A stretch of DNA of 64,000 bases from a virus: positions 81,641-145,640 of IMG/VR virus record IMGVR_UViG_3300023179_000021; one strand, written 5' to 3'. Below the pieces are notes generated by a model. That model searched no databases. It saw only the letters and a list, made by a program, of their open reading frames with translations, and was not told the origin of the DNA. A program made the translations under genes and the position numbers. Numbering within the stretch: position 1 is the stretch's first letter; each line of letters begins with the position of its first letter. This document shows, piece by piece, positions 14,491 to 50,898 of the stretch.

Positions 14491-15834
14491 ATGGAGTATC
14501 AGATGACCCCAGCAGACTTAAAGAAAGAAGCAGGTAAAGGACCGTATAAAGGAGTTCCAAGAACACAAATTTTCAAACTTAAAATAGAGGATGGAAAACC
14601 TTTTACTTTAAATAACGGTCAAAAAGTTCAAGGTACAAAATGGGATGAATCTAATTACACACTATATGTTGGTTCTCGTAAAATATCTCTAAAAGAAATA
14701 AAGAAAGATCCAGATTTTGGTGGAGGTGGTTCTGGTGCTGGTGCTGATGTTACTGCGATTGTAGAATGTGGCCAAGCTCTAGTTTGTTCATTAGTTTATA
14801 ATGTAATGAGGCGTGAAATAAAATGGGAAAATTTAACAATGGAAGGATTACAAGAGGCTTTAAAATATTGTTATCTTTCTGACAGCCTTGATGCTATCAT
14901 TGAAAGATCACCCGCCGAATGGGTACAGTCTTATGTTAAATCGGCGAATATTTTATATAGAAATTATAAGATGATGGGTTCACCTGTGTATTTTCATCGT
15001 GGTTCTAAGTTTATGGATGAGATTTATGCTAGTAAGAAAATTGTTTATGATGCTGATAAGAAGTCTGATAATCCGCAAGCACCAGGCTCATTCTCTGACG
15101 ATAAATGGAACCCAGGCGATATATGGATGACAACATTGAAACAAGTTCCATCAATTAGTAGTGATTCTTGGTCAAATTTAAATAAAGACATTTATGATTT
15201 AGCTCGTGCTAAAAAACTAATAGGTGTTTCATTGAAGAAGGTTGGAGCTACGGCACATATTGAAGAGTATAATGCTCTAAGTACGAAACAAACTAAAGAT
15301 TATAATTATGGTGGTTTCCGTGTTTCGTCGGCATCGGAACGAGGTCCTTTACCTCCATTTTTTAATTCAATTGATTTGTACATGAAAGTTGGTGAAAAAG
15401 AAATTCAGTTTAGAGCCACATCAGGTTCTGCTGGCTGGCAAGGCGAGATAAAGGGTGCCACTGCTGCAGGTGGTAAAATTGGTGGAGGTAATGTGAACTT
15501 CTTTTTGAAAAAGTATACTGGTCGTGGTGTTTTCAATAAAGAAGAAAAAGAAGTCATAGATTTCACAAAGTCTAAAGATTTTTTTCCAGAATTTTACGAG
15601 CTCTATAAAAAACATTTTGATGGTAAAATTTTACCTTATGAAGATTTTGTGATTAATGCTAACAAGAAACAAAAGGAATCGGCTGGTTATCTCTTCTCTA
15701 AATATATCAACATGAAATTTATTGATATATTTTTAAGTGCAAACGCTCAAACTAGAAACAAAATTGCAACTGAATTTTTAAGATATGCAGCTTCAAACAT
15801 AGATCAAAGTTCCTTTTTTGTAAAGATATCCTAA
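14491..15834 (+). CDS. PD-(D/E)xK-like nuclease-fold protein
   Basis: E..Q, DKWNPGDIW and GVSLKK motifs. Confidence 0.55.
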   Translation: MEYQMTPADLKKEAGKGPYKGVPRTQIFKLKIEDGKPFTLNNGQKVQGTKWDESNYTLYVGSRKISLKEIKKDPDFGGGGSGAGADVTAIVECGQALVCSLVYNVMRREIKWENLTMEGLQEALKYCYLSDSLDAIIERSPAEWVQSYVKSANILYRNYKMMGSPVYFHRGSKFMDEIYASKKIVYDADKKSDNPQAPGSFSDDKWNPGDIWMTTLKQVPSISSDSWSNLNKDIYDLARAKKLIGVSLKKVGATAHIEEYNALSTKQTKDYNYGGFRVSSASERGPLPPFFNSIDLYMKVGEKEIQFRATSGSAGWQGEIKGATAAGGKIGGGNVNFFLKKYTGRGVFNKEEKEVIDFTKSKDFFPEFYELYKKHFDGKILPYEDFVINANKKQKESAGYLFSKYINMKFIDIFLSANAQTRNKIATEFLRYAASNIDQSSFFVKIS

Positions 15835-16331
15835 TGTACTTCAAAGAATTTTTAAACGAAGCAAAAGAGGGTGCTAATTTACATTTAGAACATTTAGAAG
15901 ATAATGTGCTTAATCGTGGTACAAATGGTGCTCGTGAAGCTATTAATTTTCTTCGTTCGCTTCGTGACATGTTGGCCGGCCATGCACAATCAAAAACAAA
16001 TGTTACCACAAAATGGGACGGTTGTATTAGAGAAGATACTATTTTAAAAACAAACTATGGTGAAATGACAATAAAAGAATTACATGAAAAATTTCTATCT
16101 TTAGAAAATGTTAAAATTATGGCTAAAGATTTAAAATCAGAAATACCGATTGATAAAATGGTTTCTGTTTTAAATACTTATTGTAACGATGGAAATAAAT
16201 CGTGGGTTGAAATAGAAGTAGAAAATGGAAGTAGCATATTTGTAACAGAAGATCATAAAATACATACAACGAATAGAGGTTGGATTGAAGCTGTAAAATT
16301 GAATGTGGGTGATGATATAACCGAACTATAA
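15834..16331 (+). CDS. N-part of a fractured gene: DUF6267-like N-extein (63 aa, ending KWDG) plus split intein N-half (102 aa, from nt 16023)
   Basis: HLEHLED...TTKWDG|CIREDTILKT (block A Cys1); FVTEDHKIHTTNRGW (block B TxxH); then stop. Confidence 0.9.
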   Translation: MYFKEFLNEAKEGANLHLEHLEDNVLNRGTNGAREAINFLRSLRDMLAGHAQSKTNVTTKWDGCIREDTILKTNYGEMTIKELHEKFLSLENVKIMAKDLKSEIPIDKMVSVLNTYCNDGNKSWVEIEVENGSSIFVTEDHKIHTTNRGWIEAVKLNVGDDITEL

Positions 16332-16352
16332 AATTAGACGGTATTCATCTCA

Positions 16353-16390
16353 ATTTTTCTTTTTTTATAAATAAAATAAAGGAGAAAAAT
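16353..16390 (+). promoter_or_regulatory. late promoter TATAAATA (16366-16373) inside an SD-sequestering hairpin
   Basis: ATTTTTCTTTTTT pairs with AAAGGAGAAAAAT (13 bp, 2 G:U). Confidence 0.65.
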
Positions 16391-17047
16391 ATGAAAATTA
16401 ATGTAATTACGGAAGAAATTAGGAACCTAATTATAGAAACTTATAAACAAGAATATTCTGTTTCTAAAGTTATGGAAAAGTGTCCGAAAGGAATAGGGCG
16501 AAAAAGAGTTGAAAAAATATTAAAAGATGTTAATGTTTATGAGGGATTAAACGGTAAAAATTATTTAAAGAAAAAAGTTGAAAATCATGAAAAATTAATG
16601 ATGGAAAAATATGGCGTTATTAATTGGGGACAAACGAAAAACGGTGGTTACAGAAGTCAAAACAAAATACCATATAAAAAAATAAGTTTTTTAACCGATG
16701 ACTATAAAAAATATAGACTTTTAGTGGAAAAAGAAACTGAAAAAAATATAAAAAAGTTTTTTAAAACATATCCAAAATATTGTTATTATACAAAAATTTT
16801 ATTTGCCGATGAAGAGGGTCCTGTGAATCCAAATGATCCTAGAAAAAGAAGTGTGGATCATAAAGTGCCAGTTTTACATTGTTATTTAAATAATATTGAT
16901 GTGGAAAAAGCTTCTAGTATTGACAATATTATTTTTGTTTTGCGTTATGTAAATGCTGTAAAAGGACAAACTTTAGAGGAATCTTTTCTACCAATCGTGG
17001 AAAAAATAAGAAAGGTTTTTATAAATGAAGGTTTTAAAAGTAAATAG
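16391..17047 (+). mobile_element. free-standing homing endonuclease (HNH-like) between the split-intein halves
   Basis: AT-rich, basic ORF; MMEKYGVINWGQ; C-terminal SVDHKVP...SIDNI...NAVKG. Confidence 0.7.
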
Positions 17048-18179
17048 ATTAAGTGAAAAATATAAACAATATGATTTATCTACAGAAACAGAAAATTTCT
17101 TTGTGAAACTCGGAGAAGTTTGGGGGTTAATTCATAATTCACCCGCTGTGATTTGTGGTATTAATCCAGACAATGGTAAATTCTTCGTTGGCACCAAATC
17201 AGTATTCAATAAAGAGGGTAAACTAAATTATACCGACGCTGATATTGATAAGAACCATCCTGGTGAAGGCCTCAATGATAAGCTGAAGATAGCACTTGCA
17301 TATTTACCAAAACTAGGCATCAAAGGTATCATTCAAGGTGACATGATGTTTACAAAAGGTGATATAAAGAAACAAACAATCGACGGTCAATCCTATGCTA
17401 CCTTTCAACCAAATACGATTGTTTATGCCGTACCTTCTGATTCTGTTATGGCACAAAAGATGATGGCTGCACAACTTGGTATTGTTTTTCATACCACATA
17501 CAATGGCCGTTCAATGAAAACCCTTAAGGCCTCATTTAACATTGATATTGGACATCTCACGCCAACCAAAGATGTATGGTTTCGTGATGCTTCTTTTGTT
17601 GATGCTTCAGGTACAGCAACATTTACTGAACAAGAAACAAAGAAATTATCTGATGTTCTTTCCAATGCCGGCCGAGTGTTTCAGTCTATTAATTCATCGG
17701 TACTTAATCGCATATCAACTAACGAAACTTTTAACCTTTATATCAAAACATTCAATAATACCAAAGTTCGTTCTGGTGAACCAATTAAGAATACCCAACA
17801 ACACACTACACAACTGATAAAATGGATTGAAGATAAACTGAATAAAGAAATATTGGCGGCCAAGAAAGAAGACACTAAGAAAAAACGAATCGGTGAAAAA
17901 AATGAGGTCATGCGTTTCTTTCGAGGCAATGCTATACAACTAAAAAGTATATTTGACCTAATGAATCTAATTGTTGATGCAAAAGTTATGATTGTTCGTA
18001 AATTAGAAACAATTAAATCTTCAATTGATACATTTGTTGTAACACCAGATGGTTTTAAGGTAACTGGTCCCGAAGGGTTTGTTTGCGTGGATAGAATTTC
18101 TGGTGGTGCATTGAAGTTGATTGACCGTATGGAGTTCAGTAAAAACAATTTCAATGCTGCTAAGGCATGGAGTAAATAA
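17025..18179 (+). CDS. C-part of the fractured gene: split intein C-half (38 aa, to nt 17138) plus DUF6267-like C-extein (346 aa)
   Basis: YDLSTETENFF (block F)...LIHN|SPAVICG (block G His-Asn, Ser+1); extein has FFVGTKS, QGDMMF, PEGFV, LKLIDRMEFS. Confidence 0.9.
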   Translation: MKVLKVNRLSEKYKQYDLSTETENFFVKLGEVWGLIHNSPAVICGINPDNGKFFVGTKSVFNKEGKLNYTDADIDKNHPGEGLNDKLKIALAYLPKLGIKGIIQGDMMFTKGDIKKQTIDGQSYATFQPNTIVYAVPSDSVMAQKMMAAQLGIVFHTTYNGRSMKTLKASFNIDIGHLTPTKDVWFRDASFVDASGTATFTEQETKKLSDVLSNAGRVFQSINSSVLNRISTNETFNLYIKTFNNTKVRSGEPIKNTQQHTTQLIKWIEDKLNKEILAAKKEDTKKKRIGEKNEVMRFFRGNAIQLKSIFDLMNLIVDAKVMIVRKLETIKSSIDTFVVTPDGFKVTGPEGFVCVDRISGGALKLIDRMEFSKNNFNAAKAWSK

Positions 18180-21706: not shown

Positions 21707-22819
21707 ATGGAAGTTGTAAACATCAGTAAACTCAAAAAGAAAAAACAAAAACTCGTAGAAGAAAAAGTACAAGGCCGCACATACACTAGTAACCATGTAA
21801 AACTACTTAAGCATCTCGACCGTCTTAAAATAATCCAAGATGGTGGCCGACCAAAGCCTGTGATGTTTCACATGTCACCCTGCAATCCCTGTAATTTGAC
21901 TTGTTCTTTTTGTTGTTTTGCAAATCGTAATCTAAAAGAAATGCTTACACTAGCACAAATGAAAAAGGCTATCGACCAATTTGTAGAACTCGGTGTCAGT
22001 GGCATGGAATTGACCGGTGGTGGTGAACCTCTACTTCATCCAAAAATCAATGATGTAATTAAATATGCTCATTCAAAGGGCTTGAAAATTGGTATTGTAA
22101 CTAATGGATCAATTTTAAAACGTGTTAAAGTTTGGGACATGGTTTCTTGGGTTCGACTTGGTATGTATGGTTTCGATGAGGGTTATGATTATGACCTCTC
22201 GGTATTTGATGGTATTGATACAATTGAAATTTCGGCAGCTTATGTTTGGGATGGCGCACTTGAAACATCTACAAATCCAAATGTAACTGGTAATTGGACC
22301 AATCTAGAAAAGAAAATTCTCTCAAAGAATTTTTATAAAGAAGAAAACTTTTTTCGTATGCTAAAGTGGATTGAAGAGAAAAAAATTCCAACTCGTATTG
22401 CTTTTAATGCCATCAAAGATCCACAAGAAACGATGAAAGATATTGAAAAGATTCGTAGTCTTTTGGCGAAACATGAGGCAGAAAATGGTCCTCTAAAACA
22501 TGCCTTTTTATCTGATTTTAATTTCAAAGGTGTTCGTCGTAATGATAATTGTTATATGCACATGGTTAAACCTTGTGTTTTTACTGATGGTAATGTGTAT
22601 GTTTGTCCTTCGGCCGAACTTGCACCAGAGAATAATTATCATGTAAACGATAAATTCAAACTATGCGACATCGATGGCATTTTGGATTTTTATAATTCTC
22701 AAGTTGGTGGACCAGATGTTTCTCGTAGGCACCATGATTGTTCATTTTGTAAATATGCATATCAAAACGAATTAATTGATGATGTTGTTACTGAATTAAA
22801 ACACACAGAATTTGCTTAG
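21707..22819 (+). CDS. radical SAM enzyme with C-terminal Cys cluster (SPASM/Twitch-like)
   Basis: CNLTCSFC, TGGGEP, DGNVYVC, CSFC. Confidence 0.88.
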   Translation: MEVVNISKLKKKKQKLVEEKVQGRTYTSNHVKLLKHLDRLKIIQDGGRPKPVMFHMSPCNPCNLTCSFCCFANRNLKEMLTLAQMKKAIDQFVELGVSGMELTGGGEPLLHPKINDVIKYAHSKGLKIGIVTNGSILKRVKVWDMVSWVRLGMYGFDEGYDYDLSVFDGIDTIEISAAYVWDGALETSTNPNVTGNWTNLEKKILSKNFYKEENFFRMLKWIEEKKIPTRIAFNAIKDPQETMKDIEKIRSLLAKHEAENGPLKHAFLSDFNFKGVRRNDNCYMHMVKPCVFTDGNVYVCPSAELAPENNYHVNDKFKLCDIDGILDFYNSQVGGPDVSRRHHDCSFCKYAYQNELIDDVVTELKHTEFA

Positions 22820-25529: not shown

Positions 25530-28442
25530 ATGAGATTCCTAGAGTTCTTAATTGAACAAAAAGAAAAACATGCAGTTTTAGCTTTTGGTCGTATGAATCC
25601 AATTACGACGGGGCATGAAAAACTAGTTGAAGCTGTTAAATCCATAGCGAAAAAGTATGGTGCAACGCCATATATTGTAGTTTCACATTCGCAAGATTCA
25701 AAGAAAAACCCACTTTCGGCTCAACAAAAACTCCAGTACGCTAAAAAGTTCTTTCTTGGCGTAAACTTTTCAGCTTCAGATAAAGTGTCACCAAATATTT
25801 TTTCTCAAGCTTCAAAACTTTACAAAATGGGATATACTCATCTTCATGTTGTTGGTGGTTCTGATCGTGTCGATGAATATAAAAATATCATGAACAAATA
25901 TAATAATGTTAAAGGTTCTCATGGTTTTTATAATTTTAAAAACATTATGGTTCATTCAGCTGGTGAAAGAGATCCTGATGCGAAGGGCACTGAGGGCATG
26001 TCAGCATCAAAAATGCGTGAAGCTGCTAAAAACAATGATTTTAAAACATTTCGCAAAGGTGTTCCAAGTCATGCTACAGAATCGGATGCAAAAGGATTAT
26101 TTAATGATGTAAGACATGGAATGGGTCTTAAAGAGAGTATTGATTTTGATTTTGAAGAAATGTTTTTAGAGGGTGTCCATGATAAAAGTATTTTCAAGGC
26201 CGTTTTTCTTGCCGGTGGTCCAGGGTCTGGTAAAGATTATGTACTAGACAATACATTAAGTGGCCATGGGTTGACCGAGATTAATTCGGATAAAGCCTTT
26301 GAATATCTCATGGACAAAAAGAATTTAGATATGAAAATGCCCGAAAGTGAGAAAGAAGCTCGTGATGTTGTTCGTGGTAGAGCTAAATCTATGACTGAAC
26401 TACGCGAAAGATTAGCTCTTCTTGGTCGTAATGGTGTAATTATCAATGGCACTGGTGATGACCCAGAAAAAATCGCAAGAATTAAACAACGTCTTGAGCA
26501 AATTGGCTATGAAACAAGAATGATTATGGTAAATACTCGTGATGAAGTTTCGGCATCAAGAAATGTAGAAAGGGGGCAACGTGGTGGTCGTACAGTGCCA
26601 GAAAAGATTCGTAAACAAAAGTGGGATTCTGTGCAGGCTGCCAGGCCAGAACTCGCTAAACTTTTTGGTGATAATTATACTGAATTTGATAACTCGGAAG
26701 ATTTAAGAACAGCCAGACCCGAGATTGTACAACAAAAGAAACAAGAAATGTTGGATCTTTATAAAAGTGTACAAAAATTTGTAACAAAACCACCCAAAAA
26801 TGATGTGTCAAAAGAATGGATTGCAAGCGAATTACAGAAAGCCGATGTACAAAAAATTGATACGAAGAAAGAAGTAGCGCCACATGAAGGATCCAAAGCA
26901 GCAGAAGAGGCACGAAGAATGGGCCTTAAATATTATGGTTTTGGCCGATATGGAAAAGATGGTAAAGTAACTCATCGTGTTATACATGATAAATTGACCG
27001 ATGTAAGTAAATCTGCTCAACAAGAACCTGCTGCAAGAGAAGCTATAAGAACAATTGCAGCGGCTGGTTCAAGTGGTTCAAATATTACTCCAAGGCAAAA
27101 AGAAAAACTTAAAACACTTATGAGTAAATCGAAATTGCCAAAATTAAAAGAAGAAAATGAACCAAGAATACCTAAAAAACCTGGGCAACCAGATAAGTCG
27201 GATAAACATTCTGATTTATATACCGATGAAGAACCAAGAGGTACGATTCATGGGTTGAAATTTGCTACAAAAGAAGATGCTGAAGAAAGTGTAAGAAAAA
27301 TTAAATCAAGTGATCGTTCACATGCACATAAAATACAAGCAGCTGTTGCTATGGAGCAAAGAGCAAGAGTTATGGGTAAAGATTCTGCAGCTGCCGTTTA
27401 TCGAAAGTTTATAAATTCTATGAAAGAATCATTTGAAAATACTGATGAAGAATTCGAAAATTTATTTTCTGAAGATTTGCGTCAATGGTTTAACCCATCT
27501 CATCCAAAAGGTGGTTGGAAAAGAGTTAACAGTAAAGGTGAAGTTATTGGTCCTTGTGCTCGTGAACCTGGTGAGGGTAAACCAAAATGTTTATCTAATG
27601 AAAAAATTGGTAGTTTATCTAAAAAAGAACGTGCTGCGGCTTTTCGTGCAAAAAGAAAGTATGATCCAAATCCAGAACGCCAAGGTAAACCAATTAATGT
27701 ATCAAACTTTGGCAAAGGTAAATTATCAGAATCTTATGATTTGACAGATTCAAGCGCACTTAATATTTTACTCTTAGGTAATCGTATTGATGAAATTGAT
27801 TTAGACGATAACTATATACAGTTTGAAGAAAAAAAATATTTAAAAGATTCTAGCGGAAAAATTCGTGTGTTTATGTTACGAAGAGCCGCAACAAAAGAAG
27901 CACACACTAAAAACGGAACAGTCATACCATATAAAAATGGTTATATTGTCCAACTAAACGAGGAGACTTATCATGGGAATTCTACAATTCCTGAAAGACA
28001 TATTTTGGGTGAACAAATCGAACTCAGAGAAACCACATCCGCTGGACCCACTTACTTTACCGAAACAAGAGCCCGCCTTAGAGAGTACGCCGAGCTTACC
28101 ACAGGTCAAGAATATGCCAGAGGAGAAGGAATCACCAGTGCCGGAACAGAAGCGCCAGCCGCAGGCACAAAAATCACCCTCGCCAAAATCAGGCAACGGC
28201 AGAAGGAAGCCAAAGTCAAAGAATCTATCGACAAGGGCATAGAACCGGGTCTTTCAATGTCGGCTTCTGGTGAAAATGCTGGGCGACCATCTTTAAAAAC
28301 AAAACAAAATAAAAAACCTTTTGAAGAGGCAATTGGTGCTGGTGGTGAAGATGCAAATTCAATTGGTGCTAAAAAAGAAGATGAACTAAAAAAAGTGGGA
28401 ATTAGTTTAACAACATTCAAAGCAAAAAGGCCAATAGGATGA
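25530..28442 (+). CDS. multidomain protein: cytidylyltransferase-like, zeta-toxin-like P-loop kinase and small basic modules; putative head-packaged
   Basis: FGRMNPITTGH, VGGSDR, GMSASKMR; FLAGGPGSGK; N-terminus MRFLEFLIE; late-like ACTAAATA at 25487. Confidence 0.8.
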   Translation: MRFLEFLIEQKEKHAVLAFGRMNPITTGHEKLVEAVKSIAKKYGATPYIVVSHSQDSKKNPLSAQQKLQYAKKFFLGVNFSASDKVSPNIFSQASKLYKMGYTHLHVVGGSDRVDEYKNIMNKYNNVKGSHGFYNFKNIMVHSAGERDPDAKGTEGMSASKMREAAKNNDFKTFRKGVPSHATESDAKGLFNDVRHGMGLKESIDFDFEEMFLEGVHDKSIFKAVFLAGGPGSGKDYVLDNTLSGHGLTEINSDKAFEYLMDKKNLDMKMPESEKEARDVVRGRAKSMTELRERLALLGRNGVIINGTGDDPEKIARIKQRLEQIGYETRMIMVNTRDEVSASRNVERGQRGGRTVPEKIRKQKWDSVQAARPELAKLFGDNYTEFDNSEDLRTARPEIVQQKKQEMLDLYKSVQKFVTKPPKNDVSKEWIASELQKADVQKIDTKKEVAPHEGSKAAEEARRMGLKYYGFGRYGKDGKVTHRVIHDKLTDVSKSAQQEPAAREAIRTIAAAGSSGSNITPRQKEKLKTLMSKSKLPKLKEENEPRIPKKPGQPDKSDKHSDLYTDEEPRGTIHGLKFATKEDAEESVRKIKSSDRSHAHKIQAAVAMEQRARVMGKDSAAAVYRKFINSMKESFENTDEEFENLFSEDLRQWFNPSHPKGGWKRVNSKGEVIGPCAREPGEGKPKCLSNEKIGSLSKKERAAAFRAKRKYDPNPERQGKPINVSNFGKGKLSESYDLTDSSALNILLLGNRIDEIDLDDNYIQFEEKKYLKDSSGKIRVFMLRRAATKEAHTKNGTVIPYKNGYIVQLNEETYHGNSTIPERHILGEQIELRETTSAGPTYFTETRARLREYAELTTGQEYARGEGITSAGTEAPAAGTKITLAKIRQRQKEAKVKESIDKGIEPGLSMSASGENAGRPSLKTKQNKKPFEEAIGAGGEDANSIGAKKEDELKKVGISLTTFKAKRPIG
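27973..28242 (+). CDS. candidate nested out-of-frame gene (89 aa)
   Basis: GAGGAG SD 7 nt upstream; amphipathic MGILQFLKDIFW start; Pro/Lys-rich tail. Confidence 0.45.
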   Translation: MGILQFLKDIFWVNKSNSEKPHPLDPLTLPKQEPALESTPSLPQVKNMPEEKESPVPEQKRQPQAQKSPSPKSGNGRRKPKSKNLSTRA

Positions 28443-29137
28443 AAAACTTTAAAACATTTATAACAGAAGGTCGCCCTTCACAGAGACACCCACTAGAGGG
28501 CCATGATTATCATAAGAAAACTGATGCTCAACTAGAATATATTGCTAAAGACGCACACAAGGCTGCTGAGGCCATGAAAGGTCACAACACACAGGCAGAA
28601 AACAAGTATCGTGACCAGGCCAATGATTCAGCAACCGTAAGATACTGGCGCAAGAAAAATGGTATGCCTGACTGGTATAAGAAAAAATACGGTCACATGA
28701 AAGAAGAAGTAGAACAAATTGATGAAATGGATAAATCACAACCTTCTTCAAGTCGTGGTGCTGAAGGATTACCATTAGGTAAAAAAGCAATCCCAGTTAA
28801 AACTGATAAAGTTAAATCTGATGCGCTAAAAGTATTGCAGAAACAATACAAAAAAGTAAAAGAAGAAATTGAAATCGAAGAAGATTGGCAAAAAGTAAAT
28901 AAGGCCGATAAAACCGATGGTCTCTCACAGAAGGCCGTAGATGCTTATCGCCGTGAGAATCCGGGTTCTAAACTTCAAACAGCTGTAACTGAAAAGAACC
29001 CAACAGGTAAACGAGCAGCACGCCGTAAATCATTTTGTTCTCGGATGGGCGGTATGAAGAAACGATTAACAAACCCGGAAAATGCTCGTGATCCGGATAG
29101 CCCAATCAACAAGGCTCTACGCCGCTGGAATTGCTAA
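28439..29137 (+). CDS. modular basic protein (DUF6321-like C-terminal module), putative internal head protein
   Basis: MKNFKTFITE start; RRKSFCSRM...INKALRRWNC. Confidence 0.65.
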   Translation: MKNFKTFITEGRPSQRHPLEGHDYHKKTDAQLEYIAKDAHKAAEAMKGHNTQAENKYRDQANDSATVRYWRKKNGMPDWYKKKYGHMKEEVEQIDEMDKSQPSSSRGAEGLPLGKKAIPVKTDKVKSDALKVLQKQYKKVKEEIEIEEDWQKVNKADKTDGLSQKAVDAYRRENPGSKLQTAVTEKNPTGKRAARRKSFCSRMGGMKKRLTNPENARDPDSPINKALRRWNC

Positions 29138-29140
29138 TAA

Positions 29141-29797
29141 ATGACACAATTTAGTACACAAACTGACGATTTTTTAAACAATAATCGTAATATTTATGAA
29201 GTGATGTATTTAGCTAACAATGCCAATGGTGACATTGTATCAACCGTAAATCCTTTACCAGTAAAAGTTTTAAATACAATAACAGTAATTACTGAAGAAG
29301 AATCTGGTAATTTATTTGCATTTAATAATCATTCATTACATTCAAATCGTGGTTGGACTATGGATGATAACATGCGACCAGTTATGAGTTTTAGAGTTTC
29401 TAATACAGCGACAACAATAACAGACTTAGCTGAAATATTTGAGTATCAACTAGGAAATAATAATGCTAACCAAAGCACAATAGTTTATGAATGGTATGAA
29501 GGTGATTTAACGATTTCTGGCGCTTCTATCCCAAATTGGATTTCAGTTGGAACAAAATGTGAATATAGAATATATGAAGACAAATATAGTTCTAATACTG
29601 GAAACAGTTTTACAGCAAATACCGGTATATTAAGACATTCAGGAATTGTAATTGGTAAAAATGCTGACGGTGATAATTTGGATATTTCATTGTTTGGTGG
29701 AGCTACACCGAATATGGTAACATTGTGTATGAAAAGAGTGGATTCTTCAACTAAACTTGATGTTTGGTTCGCATTTAATATAAAAGAATTAACATAA
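29141..29797 (+). CDS. hypothetical, possibly virion structural protein
   Basis: Beta-rich Asn/Thr/Ser composition; NPLPV motif. Confidence 0.55.
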   Translation: MTQFSTQTDDFLNNNRNIYEVMYLANNANGDIVSTVNPLPVKVLNTITVITEEESGNLFAFNNHSLHSNRGWTMDDNMRPVMSFRVSNTATTITDLAEIFEYQLGNNNANQSTIVYEWYEGDLTISGASIPNWISVGTKCEYRIYEDKYSSNTGNSFTANTGILRHSGIVIGKNADGDNLDISLFGGATPNMVTLCMKRVDSSTKLDVWFAFNIKELT

Positions 29798-29820
29798 AAA
29801 TAAAAACTCAGGAGAAACAA

Positions 29821-31092
29821 ATGTCGATCTATGATAAGACACTTAAAAATGTTGCAGAAGTTGCAGCAAAAATCATGGCAGAAAAGTTACACCCAAACCA
29901 ACAAAAATTGGATGTATATGAACCAGAGAAAGATAAGTTGACGGCCAAAGATTTTGAAATGCTTCGTGCAGGTAAGAAGGCCAAGATGAAGGAAGAAACT
30001 GGGCTAGAGGAATCTGGCGAAATGGGTCCTGTAACAAGGCCCAAAGAAAAACCTGTAACAATGCGTCATAAAACATCCGGTAAAGAAATCGTTGTTGTTA
30101 AGGCCGGTGTTAAGGACAAACAAAAACTTGGTTATAAAATGGTCAAAGAAGAAGATGAACTTCAAGAAATGAAAGATATGATTGATGCTTTAATTCTTGA
30201 ATATGAAGCAAAAGGCGGCGTATACAGGCATCAAGGTTCCTATGGTTATGGTGGCAAGGGTGTTGAACATGGTCAAACTGATTATAAAAAAGAAAATGAT
30301 TTAGCCAAAGCCGCTGATAAACCTGCTCGTAAAAAGTATGGTTCTCGTCAAAATTATGTTCGTTCTACTCGTGTCAATGAATCGTTCACTGAATTGCTCG
30401 AAAAGTATACTGAGGGTGGCATGAAAGGTTTAAATGAAACTCTTTATGTGATCCAAGAGGAAGCTGATAATGAACAATTTACAAAAGAACTAGAGAAAGC
30501 CAAAAGAAAAGCCGCAGGCCAAGACCGTAATGATGAAAACATTGCTAAGGGTTCAGTGCAAGCTGTAAAAAATGAAGAAGTGGAAGAATTCGATGAAGCT
30601 ATGAGTCATCAGGCCAAAACTACTATGAAACACGTTAAGAATCCTACGCCAGGTGAAAAGAAGGCTGCTAAAGATATTAAACCTGGAGTTGGTGGTTATA
30701 GTGATCGTTATGCAATGCTTCAAAGTGCCAAAGCTCGTGGTGCATTGAAGGAAGAAGACGCACTTGATGAAGAAGGTCCACAAGGTAAAGTACCAATGAC
30801 AAGTTTAATGCCAGGCCACAGTGATAAGGCTGCACGATTTGCCGCTGTTCAAGCAAAAGGTAAATTGGTCAAGGGTAAAGCTCAAAGTGCTCCACAAAAA
30901 GAACCTGGTATGAAAAAAGAAGAAATTGAAGAAATTGATGAGCGTAAGATGACAGAACCAGAAATGAAAGAACGTGAGCGAATTGTAAAAGGTATGAAAA
31001 AAGGCCTTTCTGGTTTCAAGCAGCGTTATGGTGAGAGAGCAAAAAGTGTCATGTACGCTACCTCAGCTAAAATCGCAAAAGAAAGAGCATAA
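29821..31092 (+). CDS. modular basic protein with Glu-rich linkers, putative internal head protein
   Basis: Modules separated by MKEETGLEE, VKEEDELQE, KNEEVEEFDE, KKEEIEEIDE. Confidence 0.65.
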   Translation: MSIYDKTLKNVAEVAAKIMAEKLHPNQQKLDVYEPEKDKLTAKDFEMLRAGKKAKMKEETGLEESGEMGPVTRPKEKPVTMRHKTSGKEIVVVKAGVKDKQKLGYKMVKEEDELQEMKDMIDALILEYEAKGGVYRHQGSYGYGGKGVEHGQTDYKKENDLAKAADKPARKKYGSRQNYVRSTRVNESFTELLEKYTEGGMKGLNETLYVIQEEADNEQFTKELEKAKRKAAGQDRNDENIAKGSVQAVKNEEVEEFDEAMSHQAKTTMKHVKNPTPGEKKAAKDIKPGVGGYSDRYAMLQSAKARGALKEEDALDEEGPQGKVPMTSLMPGHSDKAARFAAVQAKGKLVKGKAQSAPQKEPGMKKEEIEEIDERKMTEPEMKERERIVKGMKKGLSGFKQRYGERAKSVMYATSAKIAKERA

Positions 31093-31685
31093 TGAAACAT
31101 TGGCACCATATTGTTCCCAAACACGCTGGCGGAACTGATGATCCATCAAATCTTATTCAACTTACGATTGAAGAACATGCTGAAGAACATAAAAAACTTT
31201 GGGAACAACATGGTCGTTGGCAAGACAAAATTGCTTGGCAAACATTATCTGGTCAAATAAGTATACAGGAAGCTCGTGAAAAAATGATGAAATATAACAA
31301 TCCAATGCACAATCCAGAAGTTATAACTAAAATGTCTGGTAAAAATCATTGGGTTAATAGGGAAGGCAATATTTCTAATTGGATAAAAGACAATCCAATG
31401 CACAAACCGGAAATTATAGTTAAAATGTCTGGCGAAAATCATTGGTCTAAAAGGCCAGGAAAAGTTCATAATTGTCCAGAAGGTCCTATGAAAAATAAAA
31501 AACACGCCGAAGAAACTAAAAGAAAAATTGCTGAAACTAATATGGGAAGAGTACCTTCGAATAAAGGTCAAAGAGGTATTTTTGGTTGGTTTAATGATGG
31601 CGAAAAAAATTATCAAATAAAGTTAACCGAAAAAATAGATTCCAATTTAAAAAAAGGTAGATTAAAATGGATACAAAAGGACTAA
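31092..31685 (+). mobile_element. HNH homing endonuclease (Mob-like) with NUMOD3-like motif
   Basis: HHIVPKHAGGTDDPSNLIQLTIEEHAEEH; two NPMHxPE..KMSGxNHW repeats; KKHAEETKRKI. Confidence 0.85.
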
Positions 31686-31686
31686 T

Positions 31687-32838
31687 ATGAAAAAAGTCTC
31701 CGAATTCTTTAAAGAACTTGAGGAAGAAAAAAAAGACAAGTATGATGAAGGCGAATATGACCAAGAAGGTGATATGGCCAAGTCAGACCTCCGTTCAATC
31801 ATAGCCAATGCACAAAAACTGCACGATATGATTGATGATGCCGACAACCTTCCTGAATGGGTACAATCTAAAATTACAGTGGCCGAAGATTACATTTCAA
31901 CCGTTGCAAATTATATGACGGCTGAAATGTCTGAGGCCGCTAAATTGACACCTCAACAAAAGTTTAAAAACAGTATGAAACGTGCCGGTTATGATATGGA
32001 TGCTAGTGCTAAAAGATTGCAAGACCTATTAGCAAAGCAAAAGAAAGAGCGTGAAGAGCGTGAGAAGAAAAATATGGCGGAAGGCGACAGTGGAGCAAAA
32101 TATAAAGTAAAATCTATTGGTAAAGATATTAAGGGTGATTACTATATCAGTCCCAGCTCTGATAAAAAAGTTTATAAGTCAGGAGTAAATAAAGGCGATC
32201 ACGAAAATCCTAAAACAGGAGAGATTAAAAAGATTGTGGCGGAAGACACTGAACTACAAGAAGCAAATGCTGCAGCAATAGCAGCTGCTACCGCTATCGC
32301 AAAGAAAAAATCTGGTAATTATGACAGTGAAGGCATGAGAAAAACACCTTATAAGAATCCCGATGCACCAAACAGAAAAACAAATACTGAAAGAAAAAGA
32401 GAAATGGATGAAAGTTATTTGGAAGAAAAAAATGTTCCAACAAACCCTTCTCTTTGGTCAAGAGCAAAAGCTTTAGCTCGTCAGAAATTTGACGTATACC
32501 CTTCGGCCTACGCAAATGGTTGGGCTTCAAAATGGTACAAATCTAAAGGTGGAAGCTGGAAATCAGTGAGTGAATCTAAAGAAGATTTGCCTTTTGAACC
32601 AGATCCACCTAAAAAGAATAAAAAACCAGATCACGGCCCAATGTCGAGAGTTAGGCATTTAGCAAAACAAGCTATGAAAAAACAAACTGAAAAAATGAAA
32701 CCAATGAAAGAAACCATTGAAGAATCACGCAAAGCTGAAATTGTCAAAGAGATCGTTAAAAAAAAGAAAAATGAAATGAACGGTAAATTTGAAGCCGACC
32801 CAGTTTTAACAAGTTCAGTTGTCAAAGAGAATAAATAG
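31687..32838 (+). CDS. modular protein with Glu-delimited modules (DUF5872-like module), putative internal head protein
   Basis: MKKVSEFFKELEE; LPEWVQSKIT; PSAYANGWASKWYKSKGGSWK. Confidence 0.65.
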   Translation: MKKVSEFFKELEEEKKDKYDEGEYDQEGDMAKSDLRSIIANAQKLHDMIDDADNLPEWVQSKITVAEDYISTVANYMTAEMSEAAKLTPQQKFKNSMKRAGYDMDASAKRLQDLLAKQKKEREEREKKNMAEGDSGAKYKVKSIGKDIKGDYYISPSSDKKVYKSGVNKGDHENPKTGEIKKIVAEDTELQEANAAAIAAATAIAKKKSGNYDSEGMRKTPYKNPDAPNRKTNTERKREMDESYLEEKNVPTNPSLWSRAKALARQKFDVYPSAYANGWASKWYKSKGGSWKSVSESKEDLPFEPDPPKKNKKPDHGPMSRVRHLAKQAMKKQTEKMKPMKETIEESRKAEIVKEIVKKKKNEMNGKFEADPVLTSSVVKENK

Positions 32839-32870
32839 AAGAATAAATCAAATTTCTAGGAGAAAAATAA

Positions 32871-33212
32871 ATGGCACTTTGGTCAAATACAGACGCTAAT
32901 ACTTCGGCACCAGTTTTCGCTGTTGCTAGTGGTCGTGGCGTTTCAGCAAACGGCTTCACGCTATATGCAAATACGCAAGCCGATGCTTTTATCACTGGTC
33001 TAAATGTTGGTGTTTTTGGTGTAGACACAACAGAAATTGGTCTCGCTAATAACGCCACACAAAAACCAGCCCATGCTGGTTGGGTACTTCGCACAGAGGG
33101 TTCTGGTGGTCGTGCAGGCCGTATTCAAACCGAAGTTATTGTAGCGATGGGCTCAATGACTGGTGACGGTGGCGCAACAATCAATGACAACCCAATCTAC
33201 GCAAATACCTAA
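32871..33212 (+). CDS. conserved T4-like virion structural protein
   Basis: MALW...HAGWV...GGRAGRIQTEVIVAM; SD AGGAG. Confidence 0.6.
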   Translation: MALWSNTDANTSAPVFAVASGRGVSANGFTLYANTQADAFITGLNVGVFGVDTTEIGLANNATQKPAHAGWVLRTEGSGGRAGRIQTEVIVAMGSMTGDGGATINDNPIYANT

Positions 33213-33213
33213 T

Positions 33214-33585
33214 ATGAGGTTTAGTCAATACATTTCTGAAATGGAAGAACCCATTATAATGACAATGGGTTCTTTTGATGTTTTTGATTCTTTAAGCCAA
33301 GAATTGGATTCAAAACTTTCAGAAACATTTTCATCACCCGAAGAAGGTATTCAAACAATTCGTGACATTATGGCTAATTATGGTGCTAATTTGCCAATGA
33401 TAAACGATTTGAATTCTGAGGGCGATGAGATAGCTCTTGATGTAGAAACGCCTGAAGGTCCTCTTATACTTTATATTATATACTCTTTAACAGATAACGA
33501 TGACTATGAATTTTATGCTGAACTCACTGATGATGATGGTTTAGAAGAAATCTTATCTGATGAGGATGAAGAAGAAAAAGATTAA
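33214..33585 (+). CDS. acidic protein with a capsid-targeting-like N-terminus
   Basis: MRFSQYISE start immediately after the previous stop. Confidence 0.55.
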   Translation: MRFSQYISEMEEPIIMTMGSFDVFDSLSQELDSKLSETFSSPEEGIQTIRDIMANYGANLPMINDLNSEGDEIALDVETPEGPLILYIIYSLTDNDDYEFYAELTDDDGLEEILSDEDEEEKD

Positions 33586-33974
33586 TGTTTGAAGATTTAA
33601 ATAATGAAAACTTTATTATCTATGCAATGAAGGCGTATGACAAACCAAATTGCTTAATGAGTGAGTTTAAAGAAGATATGAAGAGATTTAATTATCTTAA
33701 AAGACTTTTTCACAAATATCGGAAAAGTGGTGAATTAAAAGAACAATTAGTATTAAATCATCTTATTGTAATTTATAATGTGTTTGGGCCAGAACCAGCA
33801 ACAAGAATGTTATTTTATCGTATGGCTAAGGAAGATTACTCGGTGTTAAAAACGTATCTTATTTTTTTAAATTCAATGCCAACGATCATAAAAGGTATTT
33901 GTGGACAAGATATAAGATCATCAGACATAGAAGTTGATATGATGGTTGCAGAGGAATTAAGAAAAATTAAATAA
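33585..33974 (+). CDS. conserved T4-like hypothetical protein
   Basis: YAMKAYDKPNC, EFKEDMKRF, LVLNHLIVIYNVFG. Confidence 0.7.
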   Translation: MFEDLNNENFIIYAMKAYDKPNCLMSEFKEDMKRFNYLKRLFHKYRKSGELKEQLVLNHLIVIYNVFGPEPATRMLFYRMAKEDYSVLKTYLIFLNSMPTIIKGICGQDIRSSDIEVDMMVAEELRKIK

Positions 33975-34280
33975 ATGGCTAACGAATTTAAAAAAGAATG
34001 TGGTGAGGGTATGTATTGGTGTAATACCGATATGAAATGTAAACCTATTGAAGAATCTTGGTCACAAAAATATAAGAGGTCTATTGATTGTAATAATCCA
34101 AAAGGTTTTTCACAAAGAGCACATTGTCAAGGCCGAAAAAAGAGAATGAAAGAAGATGCTCCAGTAAATAATGTAAGTGGTGGTCAAATCGCTGGCGTTG
34201 GTGTAGGGCCACAAGGTGAACCGGGCATAAGTAAGAAAAAGAAAATTGCTTCATTTATTTCATTTATTCGTAGGAAATAA
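33975..34280 (+). CDS. small modular basic protein
   Basis: CGEGMYWC, IEE|SWSQKYKRSIDCNNPKGFSQRAHC, MKE|DAPVN. Confidence 0.6.
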   Translation: MANEFKKECGEGMYWCNTDMKCKPIEESWSQKYKRSIDCNNPKGFSQRAHCQGRKKRMKEDAPVNNVSGGQIAGVGVGPQGEPGISKKKKIASFISFIRRK

Positions 34281-49453: not shown

Positions 49454-49512
49454 AATTTTAAAAAATCCATTGATTTCATAAATATTATTTTTATTTTCAT
49501 GGAATCAATAAA

Positions 49513-50061
49513 ATGAAAACATACAAAGAATTTGTACAAGAATCTTCATTGTCACGAGTACATTCGCATACACAAGGCCGAAATATAGGTATGATTACGG
49601 CCCATCGTGGAGAAAATACAGCCGAAGAAAATAATCGAAACAATGATTCTCTTAAAAAATCTATAAGAGATGCTGGTTATGGGTTTATTCCTGTCCGAGG
49701 CCGTTATATAGAAAACCATGGCACACCACAAGCTCGTCCTGTTGATGAAAAATCTTTTTTAGTTGTAGGTAAAAAGGGTGATGATAAAGGTGAACTTAAA
49801 AAATTTTTAATTAAACATGGCGAAAAACACGGCCAAGATTCAATTTTACATAAACCCCATGATGAAGAAAATGCTAAATTGCATGGAACTAAAGAGGGTG
49901 GATTTCCAGGTAAGGGGAAAACGCATGATGTTGGAAAATTTCATCCAAACCGTGCTTCTGAATTTCATACGGCCATGAAAGGTTCCAGAACATTTGCATT
50001 TGAATCATTTGAATTTTTAAATTCCGTTGGGTTTTTTTCACGGGAAGAAAAGTTATTTTAA
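49513..50061 (+). CDS. SAM lyase (T3 SAMase/Svi3-3-like) with capsid-targeting N-terminus
   Basis: ITAHR, GRYIE, DEKSF and GQDSIL motifs; MKTYKEFVQE start; CATAAATA at 49477. Confidence 0.7.
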   Translation: MKTYKEFVQESSLSRVHSHTQGRNIGMITAHRGENTAEENNRNNDSLKKSIRDAGYGFIPVRGRYIENHGTPQARPVDEKSFLVVGKKGDDKGELKKFLIKHGEKHGQDSILHKPHDEENAKLHGTKEGGFPGKGKTHDVGKFHPNRASEFHTAMKGSRTFAFESFEFLNSVGFFSREEKLF

Positions 50062-50163: not shown

Positions 50164-50442
50164 ATGAGAGTTAAGAGAATGATTGACGGCCTCGATAACG
50201 GCCAAAAGATTCGGGTGATTGTTGATGGCGTTGGTTTTCACACCACGGTCAAGGGTGCCTTTGATTTGGTTTTCTACCATCACCGTGTGGCTGCTGTTCA
50301 GGCACTCACCAGCCTGGCTCTTCAACGTATACTGGCTATGCAAGGTCATGGTCAAGTAACCACGAGCTTTGCCACCCGGTACGAAGTCCGCAAGGATGAC
50401 GGCAAATTAATTCCTGTTGATGTTCAAGTGGATTTGTACTAA
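50164..50442 (+). CDS. early hypothetical protein
   Basis: SD AAGGA downstream of the promoter. Confidence 0.65.
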   Translation: MRVKRMIDGLDNGQKIRVIVDGVGFHTTVKGAFDLVFYHHRVAAVQALTSLALQRILAMQGHGQVTTSFATRYEVRKDDGKLIPVDVQVDLY

Positions 50443-50443
50443 A

Positions 50444-50638
50444 ATGTATAGAACATTGTATTATGTGGCCTTGAACCACCTAAAAACCTTTTCCGACGGT
50501 GGCTGGCGTGATTATATAGCCACGCCAAGTCTAGGTAGGGCGAGGTACTATGCCAAAAAACTTAAACGAAAGTATAGGCAAATTGATGTTTATGAAAAAG
50601 GTAAGAAACCGTATGTGCTGCCCAGGAGCTGGTTATGA
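50444..50638 (+). CDS. early hypothetical protein
   Basis: MYRTLYYVA, coupled to neighbours. Confidence 0.5.
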   Translation: MYRTLYYVALNHLKTFSDGGWRDYIATPSLGRARYYAKKLKRKYRQIDVYEKGKKPYVLPRSWL

Positions 50639-50898
50639 ATAGCCAGGAAATTAGCGATGCCGTGTATGCCTACGCAAAAGGTCGTAGCGACTTTACAGCA
50701 CCCTATGGTGTTTTACAAGGTGAGCATGTCAATCGAAAAGGCACCAAGTTTAAGAGTGTGACTTTTGGCCGTGCTCGTACACTTGATGCTACAGTGGAAA
50801 TCTATAATAGGAATTTTATGATTCTTCGGTGTAGTGGTGTTGCTAACCGAGTATATGAAAATTATGATGATTTAATGGTCGCATTGCGGGAGCTATAA
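50635..50898 (+). CDS. early hypothetical protein
   Basis: ATGA overlap; SD CAGGAG. Confidence 0.6.
   Translation: MNSQEISDAVYAYAKGRSDFTAPYGVLQGEHVNRKGTKFKSVTFGRARTLDATVEIYNRNFMILRCSGVANRVYENYDDLMVALREL

What the first reader, a model, noticed from the sequence alone, without database searches (positions are those of the whole stretch)
25530..34280. Putative capsid-packaged polyprotein arsenal: T4-type capsid-targeting leaders and modules delimited by prohead-protease-like sites
Seen: N-termini MRFLEFLIE (25530), MKNFKTFITE (28439), MKKVSEFFKELEE (31687) and MRFSQYISE (33214), plus MYFKEFLNE (15834) and MKTYKEFVQE (49513). The long ORFs are strings of short basic modules separated by acidic linkers ending in hydrophobic-x-E (EQIDE, EIEE, GLEE, ELQE, EFDE, ALDE, NMAE, YLEE, TIEE). 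Known: T4 IPII/IPIII carry MKTYQEFIAE, gp21 cuts after (I/L)xE, and internal proteins are injected (IPI* is an anti-restriction factor). Inference: these are polyproteins matured in the head into many small peptides and enzymes that are delivered with the DNA, an expandable anti-defence or takeover payload.
Basis: partly seen in the sequence, partly recalled or inferred. Interest (0 to 1): 0.82.

Follow-up and report, generated by a model that had tools for sequence, protein, structure and literature searches.

The report
Capsid-targeted cargo polyproteins in T4-like phage
A marine T4-like phage puts a T4-style "load me into the head" tag on six unrelated proteins, among them a SAM-destroying enzyme and chains of small basic modules joined by an acidic peptide that fits its head protease's cutting rule. 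It probably injects a swappable protein kit with its DNA: virion proteomes of relatives support packaging, but cutting is untested.

Summary
The window comes from a 145.6-kb marine T4-like myovirus that encodes a gp21-type prohead protease.

- **Leaders.** Six ORFs start with a T4 CTS-like leader: aromatic or hydrophobic residues at the T4 targeting positions, then hydrophobic-x-Glu. Strict DNA patterns hit five times in the genome, always at ORF starts. Orthologues and more than 100 homologues of two cargo families keep the leader.
- **Cargo.** It includes an S-AdoMet lyase, an HxGH nucleotidyltransferase fused to a P-loop kinase, a ligase-like DUF6267 protein, an acidic protein, and chains of 40-135-aa basic modules.
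- **Packaging evidence.** In cyanophage S-CREM2 the strict pattern hits only three genes: SAM hydrolase, kinase and cytidylyltransferase. These are the three "regulatory" proteins in its published virion proteome.
- **Linkers.** Modules are joined by [K/N]EE..hydrophobic-x-E linkers. Modules are gained, lost and reordered between relatives at these linkers. The exact linker EEVEQIDE occurs in frame in over 120 viral contigs.
- **Leader equals junction.** Stand-alone kinases carry an N-terminal leader that ends where the fused form has its internal junction.

Cleavage, injection and an anti-defence role remain inferred. This is a new variant of the T4 CTS/internal-protein system. The scan has noted similar systems on other DNA before.

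The parts
25530..28442 (+). 970-aa cargo polyprotein. Order of parts: 9-residue leader (nt 25530-25556), HxGH nucleotidyltransferase (aa 8-203), junction ending at aa 214 (nt 26171), P-loop kinase (aa 215-450), small GL-Y-GFG-Y module, an optional 115-aa module, junction ending at aa 648 (nt 27473), Cys-containing basic modules.
   Evidence: Pfam and PHROG hits. AF2 models with pLDDT 87 and 91, with fold matches to NaMNAT/PPAT/FADS and to zeta/AK/PNK kinases. Alignment with orthologues. Leader present on 103 of 120 stand-alone homologues. Kinase junction test.
28439..29137 (+). 232-aa cargo protein: 10-residue leader (nt 28439-28468), two basic modules, linkers at nt 28700-28726 and 28859-28882, C-terminal DUF6321 module.
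   Evidence: Orthologues keep the same leader but carry different bodies of 105, 213 (L005) and 218 aa.
29821..31092 (+). 423-aa chain of about 7 basic modules with five [KN]EE..phi-x-E linkers (nt 29989-30012, 30145-30168, 30571-30597, 30748-30771, 30916-30942). It has no CTS-like leader; its N-terminus is a different conserved type.
   Evidence: Whole-module indels against L005-L010 fall at the linkers. The same N-terminal type recurs on linker-bearing ORFs in other contigs.
31687..32838 (+). 383-aa cargo chain with a leader (nt 31687-31725) and modules that are reordered in relatives. It includes the PSAYANGW module (phrog_27331).
33214..33585 (+). 123-aa strongly acidic protein (pI 4.1) with a 9-residue leader (nt 33214-33240).
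33975..34280 (+). 101-aa basic Cys-rich protein related to modules of ORF 25530 and to phrog_30733. It has no clear leader, so whether it belongs to the system is uncertain.
   Evidence: (repeat families D7 and D9).
15834..18179 (+). DUF6267 ligase-like gene with a 9-residue leader (nt 15834-15860). In this phage it is split by intein halves and an endonuclease gene; in relatives it is uninterrupted (408-409 aa).
49513..50061 (+). 182-aa S-adenosylmethionine lyase family protein with a near-canonical T4-type leader (nt 49513-49542). A late-promoter-like CATAAATA lies at 49477-49484.
   Evidence: PF23780 hit, 42.9 bits against a cut-off of 28. Most of 120 homologues keep the leader. The S-CREM2 homologue is a virion protein. 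Promoter motif.
31092..31685 (+). HNH/NUMOD3 homing endonuclease inserted between two cargo genes. It is not part of the system and is absent at this place in relatives.

Best explanation
These genes encode head cargo of a T4-like phage.

Proposed mechanism:
1. A 9-13-residue N-terminal leader resembles the T4 capsid targeting sequence. It has aromatic or hydrophobic residues at the T4 targeting positions 4 and 7, then hydrophobic-x-Glu at the T4 processing positions 8 and 10. The leader takes each protein into the scaffold core of the prohead.
2. The gp21-family prohead protease then removes the leader.
3. In the long proteins the protease most likely also cuts after the Glu of each acidic linker, [K/N]EE..hydrophobic-x-E. 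The linkers keep the processing residues of the leader but not its targeting residues. This would release enzymes and 40-135-residue basic peptides inside the head.
4. These proteins leave with the DNA at infection.

The cargo comprises an S-AdoMet lyase (expected to remove the cofactor of SAM-dependent restriction and BREX-type defences), an HxGH nucleotidyltransferase plus P-loop kinase, a ligase-like protein, an acidic protein and many small basic modules.

Because every module is flanked by the same short linker, modules are gained, lost and reordered by recombination at the linkers. This gives a cassette-like, expandable payload.

Status of each step:
- Shown: the leader and its enrichment, conservation and portability; the modular architecture and module exchange at linkers; the presence of the protease.
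- Supported by published proteomes of relatives: virion association.
- Inferred: cutting at linkers, ejection, and any counter-defence role.
For: **Leader**
- It is enriched and specific to ORF starts.
- It is conserved in orthologues, on most of 120 SAM-lyase homologues and on 103 of 120 nucleotidyltransferase homologues, where the Glu is invariant.
- It sits on unrelated folds.

**Protease**
- A Peptidase_S77 protease is encoded in the genome.
- The phage's own major capsid protein has a T4-homologous delta domain with L-H-E|A near T4's L-T-E|A.
- The head-cluster core genes begin with similar leaders.

**Virion association in relatives**
- In S-CREM2 the strict pattern hits the 175-kb genome only at ORF6, ORF14 and ORF154. 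These are the three non-structural "regulatory" proteins of the virion proteome.
- ORF13 and ORF15 have looser leaders and are also virion proteins.
- Virion proteins ORF160 and ORF14 share small modules with ORFs 25530 and 31687.
- Cytidylyltransferase was detected in S-SM1 virions (PMC3037559).

**Linkers**
- They are near-exclusive to the cargo ORFs and the scaffold.
- Module indels and reordering fall at linkers.
- Similarity blocks start 5-9 residues before a phi-x-E end in 19 of 55 cases, against 5.3 expected. They end at such a site in 19 of 47 cases, against 8.8 expected. A phi-x-K control is flat.
The 91 matches listed lay inside long ORFs. A recount over all fetched loci gave 134 sites with 63 distinct DNA spellings.
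- 5 of 5 long contigs tested encode Peptidase_S77.

**Leader and junction are interchangeable**
- In 87 of 92 kinase homologues a phi-x-E ends 14 residues before the Walker A motif. In the 59 where the kinase lies at the protein's start it closes the N-terminus, many with a CTS-like leader; in the 33 fused forms it is an internal junction.
- The DUF6321 module shows the same pattern.

**T4 background**
- Residues 4 and 7 act in targeting and residues 8 and 10 in processing (PMC9026906).
Against: - No cleavage, packaging or injection has been measured for this phage.
- The S-CREM2 authors themselves caution that non-structural proteins may be co-purified contaminants.
- ORF 29821, the clearest module chain, lacks a CTS-like leader.
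- There is no late-promoter motif directly upstream of the 25530 cluster.
- Phi-x-E sites are frequent in Glu- and Lys-rich proteins, and some lie inside folded domains.
- A naive gap-boundary test was not significant. The block-start window used was fixed after I had seen the histogram.
- The Glu-Gly before the kinase core could be conserved for structural reasons.
- T4 itself offers no precedent for multi-site cutting of non-scaffold cargo beyond the two ends of Alt.
Confidence: 0.6

Rival explanations
1. The proteins are packaged but not cut apart. The leader targets them to the head and may be removed, but the acidic linkers are only flexible spacers and recombination joints between basic modules. 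The long chains then act as intact multi-domain proteins.
For: - Linker DNA repeats of 26-29 nt at 72-88% identity could drive recombination on their own.
- The Gln codon in the linker is biased to CAG (81% against 30% in the same ORFs), which hints at some DNA-level constraint.
- No cleavage data exist.
- Multi-domain, uncut "polyvalent" effectors are known (PMC5512222).
Against: - The linker peptide is held constant across 63 distinct DNA spellings and many contexts.
- It keeps exactly the two T4 processing positions.
- The same position is an N-terminal leader in stand-alone forms.
- The only other copy of the linker motif in the proteome is in the scaffold, which is a known protease substrate class in T4.
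Confidence: 0.22
2. The leader is not a capsid-targeting signal. It would instead be a common N-terminal helix with another role, such as folding, translation efficiency, or recognition by a modifying enzyme like the nearby radical-SAM protein. Detection of homologues in virions would then reflect abundant contaminants.
For: - The S-CREM2 authors raise contamination as a possibility.
- A radical-SAM gene lies at 21707-22819.
- An earlier scan note (e1-127136) found another shared phage tag that is better explained by a radical-SAM partner.
- HTVC008M homologues have weaker leaders.
Against: - In S-CREM2 the strict pattern picks exactly the three non-structural virion proteins out of 221 genes.
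- The leader closely matches the experimentally defined T4 CTS, 8 of 10 residues for ORF 49513.
- The invariant Glu and the preceding hydrophobic residue fit the protease rule.
- SAM-lyase homologues in named phage records all lie in myoviruses, several of them known T4-like phages; I tested none of those records for the protease.
Confidence: 0.1
3. The cargo is packaged and processed but is not an anti-defence payload. The basic peptides would mainly neutralise and organise DNA in the head, as proposed for T4 IPII and IPIII. The enzymes would serve early metabolism, such as nucleotide-cofactor supply or RNA repair.
For: - Most modules are strongly basic.
- The fold matches of the two enzymes are generic: NaMNAT/PPAT/FADS for one and zeta/AK/PNK for the other.
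- There were no hits to known anti-defence families apart from the SAM lyase.
Against: - SAM lyase is an established anti-restriction activity.
- The fast turnover and shuffling of modules between close relatives is more typical of arms-race genes than of housekeeping DNA-condensing proteins.
Confidence: 0.08

Closest known systems
Phage T4 internal proteins IPI, IPII, IPIII and Alt: capsid targeting sequence (CTS) plus gp21 processing
   Same: - An N-terminal leader of about 10 residues with the same key positions. ORF 49513 matches MKTYQEFIAE at 8 of 10 residues.
- The leader ends in hydrophobic-x-Glu.
- The phage has a gp21-family protease.
- The cargo is unrelated in sequence behind a shared leader.
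- Enzymes are among the cargo, as with Alt in T4.
- Basic small proteins are among the cargo.
   Different: - The mature parts have no homology to T4 IPs.
- Leader lengths vary: 9, 10 and 12-13 residues.
- Cargo includes SAM lyase, nucleotidyltransferase-kinase and ligase-like enzymes.
- Long chains of modules are joined by internal processing-type linkers that are exchanged between phages. This is not described for T4.
- The genes lie among replication and nucleotide-metabolism genes rather than at the T4 ip loci.
Polyvalent proteins of phages and conjugative elements (Iyer, Burroughs, Anand, de Souza, Aravind 2017, PMC5512222)
   Same: - Many effector modules sit in one polypeptide.
- Delivery with the invading DNA is predicted.
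- The authors draw an analogy to viral polyproteins.
- Release of domains by proteolysis is proposed.
   Different: - Polyvalent proteins carry embedded peptidase domains and are linked to MuF/portal or T4SS contexts. Here no peptidase domain is present, and the proposed cutter is the separate prohead protease acting on a short repeated linker.
- Targeting is by a T4-type leader.
- That paper notes a paucity of polyvalent proteins in cyanobacteria and does not count T4 Alt among them.
Ejection proteins of giant phages phiKZ and SPN3US, processed by the prohead protease (PMC5694885, PMC10052503)
   Same: - Many head-internal proteins are cut by a T4-related prohead protease after Glu.
- Propeptides are removed.
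- The proteins are ejected into the cell.
   Different: - The cleavage motif and the propeptides differ. I read neither paper's text here; from my own recollection the motif there has a small residue, then x, then Glu.
- There is no shared 10-residue CTS-type leader and no repeated cassette linker.
- The cargo families are unrelated.
T3/T7-type S-adenosylmethionine lyase (SAMase), Pfam PF23780
   Same: ORF 49513 is a member of this family by Pfam score. The known role of the enzyme is to remove SAM and so blunt SAM-dependent restriction.
   Different: To my knowledge the T3 enzyme is made early from the injected DNA. Here the enzyme carries a capsid-targeting-type leader, and its S-CREM2 homologue is found in virions, which implies delivery as pre-made protein.

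Membership tests
T4-type CTS-bearing head cargo (functional class) | N-terminal leader of about 10 residues with hydrophobic or aromatic residues at positions 4 and 7 (targeting) | tested here: met
   Six ORFs meet this in register (10-mers) or shifted by one residue (9-mers). The positions are as defined in PMC9026906.
T4-type CTS-bearing head cargo (functional class) | Hydrophobic residue at position 8 and Glu at position 10 (gp21 processing site) | tested here: met
   All six leaders end in [ILVF]-x-E. The Glu is invariant in 46 aligned nucleotidyltransferase homologues.
T4-type CTS-bearing head cargo (functional class) | Phage encodes a gp21-family (Peptidase_S77) prohead protease | tested here: met
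   PF03420 hit at E 6e-36, at genome 65156-65611.
T4-type CTS-bearing head cargo (functional class) | Protein present in virions with the leader removed | not testable with these tools
   Only indirect evidence exists. Homologues with the leader are in the S-CREM2 and S-SM1 virion proteomes. No data on termini are available.
T4 internal proteins IPI/IPII/IPIII (sequence families) | Sequence homology of the mature protein | tested here: not met
   No Pfam or PHROG hit to internal-protein families for any ORF of the region.
Polyvalent proteins (Iyer et al. 2017) | Several effector domains in one polypeptide | tested here: met
   ORF 25530 has at least 5 modules, ORF 29821 about 7 and ORF 31687 about 6.
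Polyvalent proteins (Iyer et al. 2017) | Embedded peptidase domain that releases the modules | tested here: not met
   No peptidase family was found in these ORFs at E <= 0.01.
S-AdoMet lyase family PF23780 | Pfam score above the gathering threshold | tested here: met
   ORF 49513 scores 42.9 bits against a cut-off of 28. Catalytic residues were not checked.
HxGH (cytidylyltransferase-like) nucleotidyltransferases | (H/T)xGH motif and Rossmann-like nucleotidyltransferase fold | tested here: met
   P-x-T-x-G-H is invariant. The AF2 model (pLDDT 87) matches NaMNAT, PPAT and FAD synthetase at TM about 0.5. PF01467 itself scores below its cut-off (16.7 against 21). The substrate is not assignable.

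The most novel reading that the evidence does not exclude
Across abundant aquatic T4-like phages, a short conserved peptide, [K/N]EEVEQIDE and its variants, serves as a universal prohead-protease cut site and recombination joint. This would turn head cargo genes into cassette arrays. Any module placed behind a leader or a linker would be packaged, released and injected, giving these phages a combinatorial, rapidly exchangeable library of pre-made counter-defence enzymes and peptides.
Probability: 0.4. Interest if true: 0.85.

Novelty: new variant of a known kind. Interest (0 to 1): 0.72.

Why it matters
T4-like myoviruses are among the most abundant viruses in the ocean, and many of their genes have no assigned function. 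If the leader and linker rules hold, sequence alone would show which proteins these phages deliver ready-made into the cell. That would assign a role to a large class of small "hypothetical" modules and to the cyanophage-core cytidylyltransferase.

It would also explain why enzymes such as SAM hydrolase, kinases and cytidylyltransferase keep appearing in cyanophage virion proteomes.

Finally, it would provide natural packaging tags and cleavable linkers for T4-type protein delivery. The claim can be tested directly by re-searching existing virion mass-spectrometry data for peptides that begin after the predicted Glu residues.

Tried and rejected
- **Gap-boundary test.** On pairwise global alignments, 31% of gap edges lay within 3 residues of a phi-x-E site against 23% at random. 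This was not significant, because reshuffled modules give spurious gaps and repeated linkers make gap placement arbitrary.
- **Exact-offset test.** Similarity-block starts falling exactly after the Glu were not enriched (2 against 1.8). Blocks include the shared linker, so I replaced this with the offset-window test. I fixed that window after seeing the histogram, although I had expected an offset of about -8 beforehand.
- **Late promoters.** TATAAATA is not found before the 25530 cluster. Only ORFs 49513 and 32871 have ATAAATA just upstream, so the timing of expression of the cluster is unresolved.
- **Substrates of the two enzymes.**
  - The PDB sequence search gave nothing for the nucleotidyltransferase and only weak adenylate-kinase hits for the kinase.
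  - Fold searches gave generic NaMNAT/PPAT/FADS and zeta/AK/PNK matches.
  - I therefore could not choose between NadR-like cofactor salvage, CoA-type synthesis and RNA repair.
- **Literature.** I found no paper linking a capsid targeting sequence to cyanophages or marine T4-like phages. Sullivan 2010 has no text on leaders.
- **S-CREM2 ORF12 (virion Cas9-like protein).** It has a leader-like stretch at residues 17-25. The codion there is CTG, so an alternative start is unproven.
- **ORF 29141.** It has only uncharacterised viral relatives.

Full report
**Context.** The window is bases 81641-145640 of a 145.6-kb viral record. Its genes include a T4-type family-B DNA polymerase, UvsX, a gp41-like helicase, a gp61-like primase, NrdAB and ThyX/ThyA-type genes. 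The polymerase is about 50% identical to those of marine cyanomyophages. The closest named relative of the large ORF is Pelagibacter phage HTVC008M. The genome encodes a gp21-family prohead protease (Peptidase_S77, E 6e-36) in a T4-like head gene cluster. Its major capsid protein has a delta domain homologous to that of T4 gp23. An L-H-E|A site lies close to T4's L-T-E|A cleavage site, so a T4-like hydrophobic-x-Glu specificity is plausible.

**Observation: the leaders.** All six N-termini exist as described.
- Three are 10-13-mers in register with the T4 CTS, at 28439, 31687 and 49513. The last matches MKTYQEFIAE at 8 of 10 positions.
- Three are 9-mers shifted by one residue, at 15834, 25530 and 33214.
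- A strict pattern fits 5 of 188 N-termini against 0.06 expected, and 0 of 830 internal Met positions.
- The DNA forms of the pattern hit the whole genome in all frames only at these five starts. Reversed-pattern controls give 1 and 0 hits here. The 9-mer form gives 0 hits in four other T4-like genomes.
- The 10-mer form finds T4 IPII and IPIII (positive control), plus T4 gp61.1 and one site inside rnlA.

**The leader is portable and conserved.**
- It heads unrelated proteins:
  - an S-AdoMet lyase (PF23780);
  - an HxGH nucleotidyltransferase fused to a P-loop kinase;
  - a DUF6267 ligase-like protein;
  - a DUF6321-containing protein;
  - an acidic 123-aa protein;
  - a multi-module chain.
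- Eight related IMG/VR loci keep the leader on each orthologue.
- Most of 120 SAM-lyase homologues keep it.
- 103 of 120 stand-alone nucleotidyltransferase homologues start with it, and the Glu is invariant in a 46-sequence alignment.
- In relatives, the gene after the large ORF has the same leader followed by different bodies.
- The AF2 model places the leader as a separate, lower-confidence N-terminal helix before the nucleotidyltransferase core.

**Link to experiment.** The S-CREM2 paper (PMC10665884) lists 52 virion proteins. Three of them are "regulatory": SAM hydrolase ORF6, kinase ORF14 and cytidylyltransferase ORF154.
- The strict leader pattern hits the entire 174,876-bp S-CREM2 genome three times, at the starts of exactly these three genes. 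With 52 of 221 genes detected in virions, the chance of this is about 0.013.
- Two neighbours with looser leaders, ORF13 and ORF15, are also virion proteins. None of the 40 non-virion ORFs I read in the two regions has the leader.
- ORF6 is a homologue of window ORF 49513, and ORF154 of the first domain of ORF 25530.
- Virion proteins ORF160 and ORF14 share small modules with ORFs 25530 and 31687.
- Sullivan et al. 2010 detected the cyanophage-core cytidylyltransferase in S-SM1 virions. In Syn9 the only strict hit is its cytidyltransferase gp184.
- The S-CREM2 authors do not mention a targeting sequence, and they caution that these proteins might be contaminants. The coincidence with the leader argues against contamination.

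**Modules and linkers.** ORFs 28439, 29821, 31687 and the C-terminal half of 25530 are chains of mostly basic segments (pI 9.3-10.8, 40-135 aa) separated by acidic stretches ending in hydrophobic-x-Glu.
- The extended linker [KN]EE..phi[DEQ]E occurs seven times in ORFs 28439 and 29821. It occurs once elsewhere in the proteome, in the gp22-like scaffold.
- The linkers are also 26-29-nt DNA repeats.
- Against the closest relative (L005), ORF 29821 differs by whole modules that are present or absent. Each is bounded by linkers on both sides.
- ORF 28439 has one module replaced between identical linkers. ORF 31687 and its orthologues carry the same modules in different orders, each starting right after a hydrophobic-x-Glu.
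- ORF 25530 has a 115-aa optional module that ends at a linker.
- A BLAST-block test supports this pattern. Block starts lie 5-9 residues before a phi-x-E end in 19 of 55 cases (5.3+-2.1 expected). Block ends lie within -3..+2 residues in 19 of 47 cases (8.8+-2.6 expected). A phi-x-K control shows no enrichment.
- Caveats: simpler tests failed, and I chose the offset window after viewing the histogram.

**Leader and linker are interchangeable.** Among 92 kinase homologues with a Walker A motif, 87 have a phi-x-E ending 14 residues upstream of it.
- In 54 of the 59 where the kinase lies at the protein's start, this site closes the N-terminus, and many of these N-termini are CTS-like leaders.
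- In all 33 fused forms it is an internal junction, like the one in ORF 25530.
- HTVC008M encodes the kinase and the nucleotidyltransferase as separate genes.
- The DUF6321 module follows either a leader directly or a linker.
- The linkers keep the two positions that T4 genetics assigns to processing (8 and 10) but not those assigned to targeting (4 and 7). This is what one would expect of internal cut sites.

- All 91 matches examined lie in frame in long ORFs. They are usually preceded by Lys or Asn and followed by varied modules.
- A recount over all fetched loci found 134 sites with 63 distinct DNA spellings. Codon use is mostly ordinary, apart from a CAG preference.
- All five long contigs tested encode Peptidase_S77.

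**Cargo functions.**
- The SAM lyase assignment is by Pfam.
- The nucleotidyltransferase has the P-x-T-x-G-H motif and a fold nearest to NaMNAT, PPAT and FAD synthetase.
- The kinase fold is nearest to zeta toxin, adenylate kinase and polynucleotide kinases.
- Substrates cannot be assigned. Nucleotide-cofactor salvage and RNA repair (together with the ligase-like DUF6267 protein) are both possible.

**What remains open.**
- Cutting, ejection and counter-defence activity are inferred.
- ORF 29821 lacks the leader and instead has another conserved N-terminus, which recurs on linker-bearing ORFs elsewhere.
- No late promoter precedes the cluster.

**Comparison with known systems.** The closest known systems are the T4 CTS with its internal proteins and Alt, and the polyvalent proteins of Iyer et al. 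2017. This system differs by combining a CTS-type leader with repeated protease-type linkers that act as module-exchange points, and by its cargo. Earlier notes of this scan describe similar leader-plus-linker systems in other uncultured T4-like phages. Those notes are unverified and I did not use them as evidence.

Noticed in passing
window 15834-18179: The DUF6267 ligase-like gene is split. ORF 15834 carries the N-extein plus an intein N-half (PF14890). An endonuclease VII-like gene lies at 16391-17047. ORF 17025 carries the remainder. Relatives have one uninterrupted gene of 408-409 aa. The scan has already noted this (e1-5703789).
   Followed up: partly
window 31092-31685: An HNH/NUMOD3 homing endonuclease is inserted between cargo genes 29821 and 31687. 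It is absent at this place in relatives L005-L012. It contains an internal 85-nt direct repeat at 31297-31474 (two NUMOD3-like units).
   Followed up: partly
window 29821-29885 and loci L026, L033, L044, L046, L047, L089, L094, L097: A second conserved N-terminal type, about 20 residues with ..K....VA(E/D)AV.KI.., heads ORF 29821 and many linker-bearing ORFs in other contigs. It may be an alternative targeting element or a small domain.
   Followed up: no
T4 record NC_000866.4 18966-19130 (locus L018): T4 gp61.1, a 54-aa hypothetical protein, begins with MKTFKEFIKE, a near-canonical CTS. I do not know of it being listed among T4 head proteins.
   Followed up: no
window, whole: The late-promoter core ATAAATA is depleted: 11 copies against about 30 expected from shuffles. 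On the + strand, copies sit just upstream of ORFs 14491, 16391, 32871, 49513 and 61821. This is consistent with selection against stray late promoters.
   Followed up: partly
window 33214-33585: A leader-bearing protein of 123 aa has pI 4.1 and a net charge of about -24. That composition is reminiscent of DNA-mimic anti-restriction proteins. It has no family hit.
   Followed up: no
genome 63547-64748 (locus L015): Two small genes between the portal and protease genes start with leader-like N-termini (MKSLTEFRQE and MNFIDKLIE). The second has an extremely Arg/Lys-rich C-terminal half. They are likely prohead core or internal proteins.
   Followed up: no
window 50400-54200: A stretch of higher G+C (0.41-0.47 against about 0.35) is packed with 46-114-aa ORFs. 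Several begin with similar MMN(E/K).. N-termini. It looks like a hyperplastic small-gene region.
   Followed up: no
loci L020-L099, linker sites: In the conserved linker the Gln codon is CAG in 81% of 134 sites, although CAA makes up 70% of Gln codons in the same ORFs. This suggests an added constraint at the DNA or RNA level.
   Followed up: partly
window 13348-14463: A 371-aa gene has a DruA (Druantia) Pfam hit (E 1e-10). It is syntenic with HTVC008M gp126 and lies just upstream of the leader-bearing DUF6267 gene.
   Followed up: no
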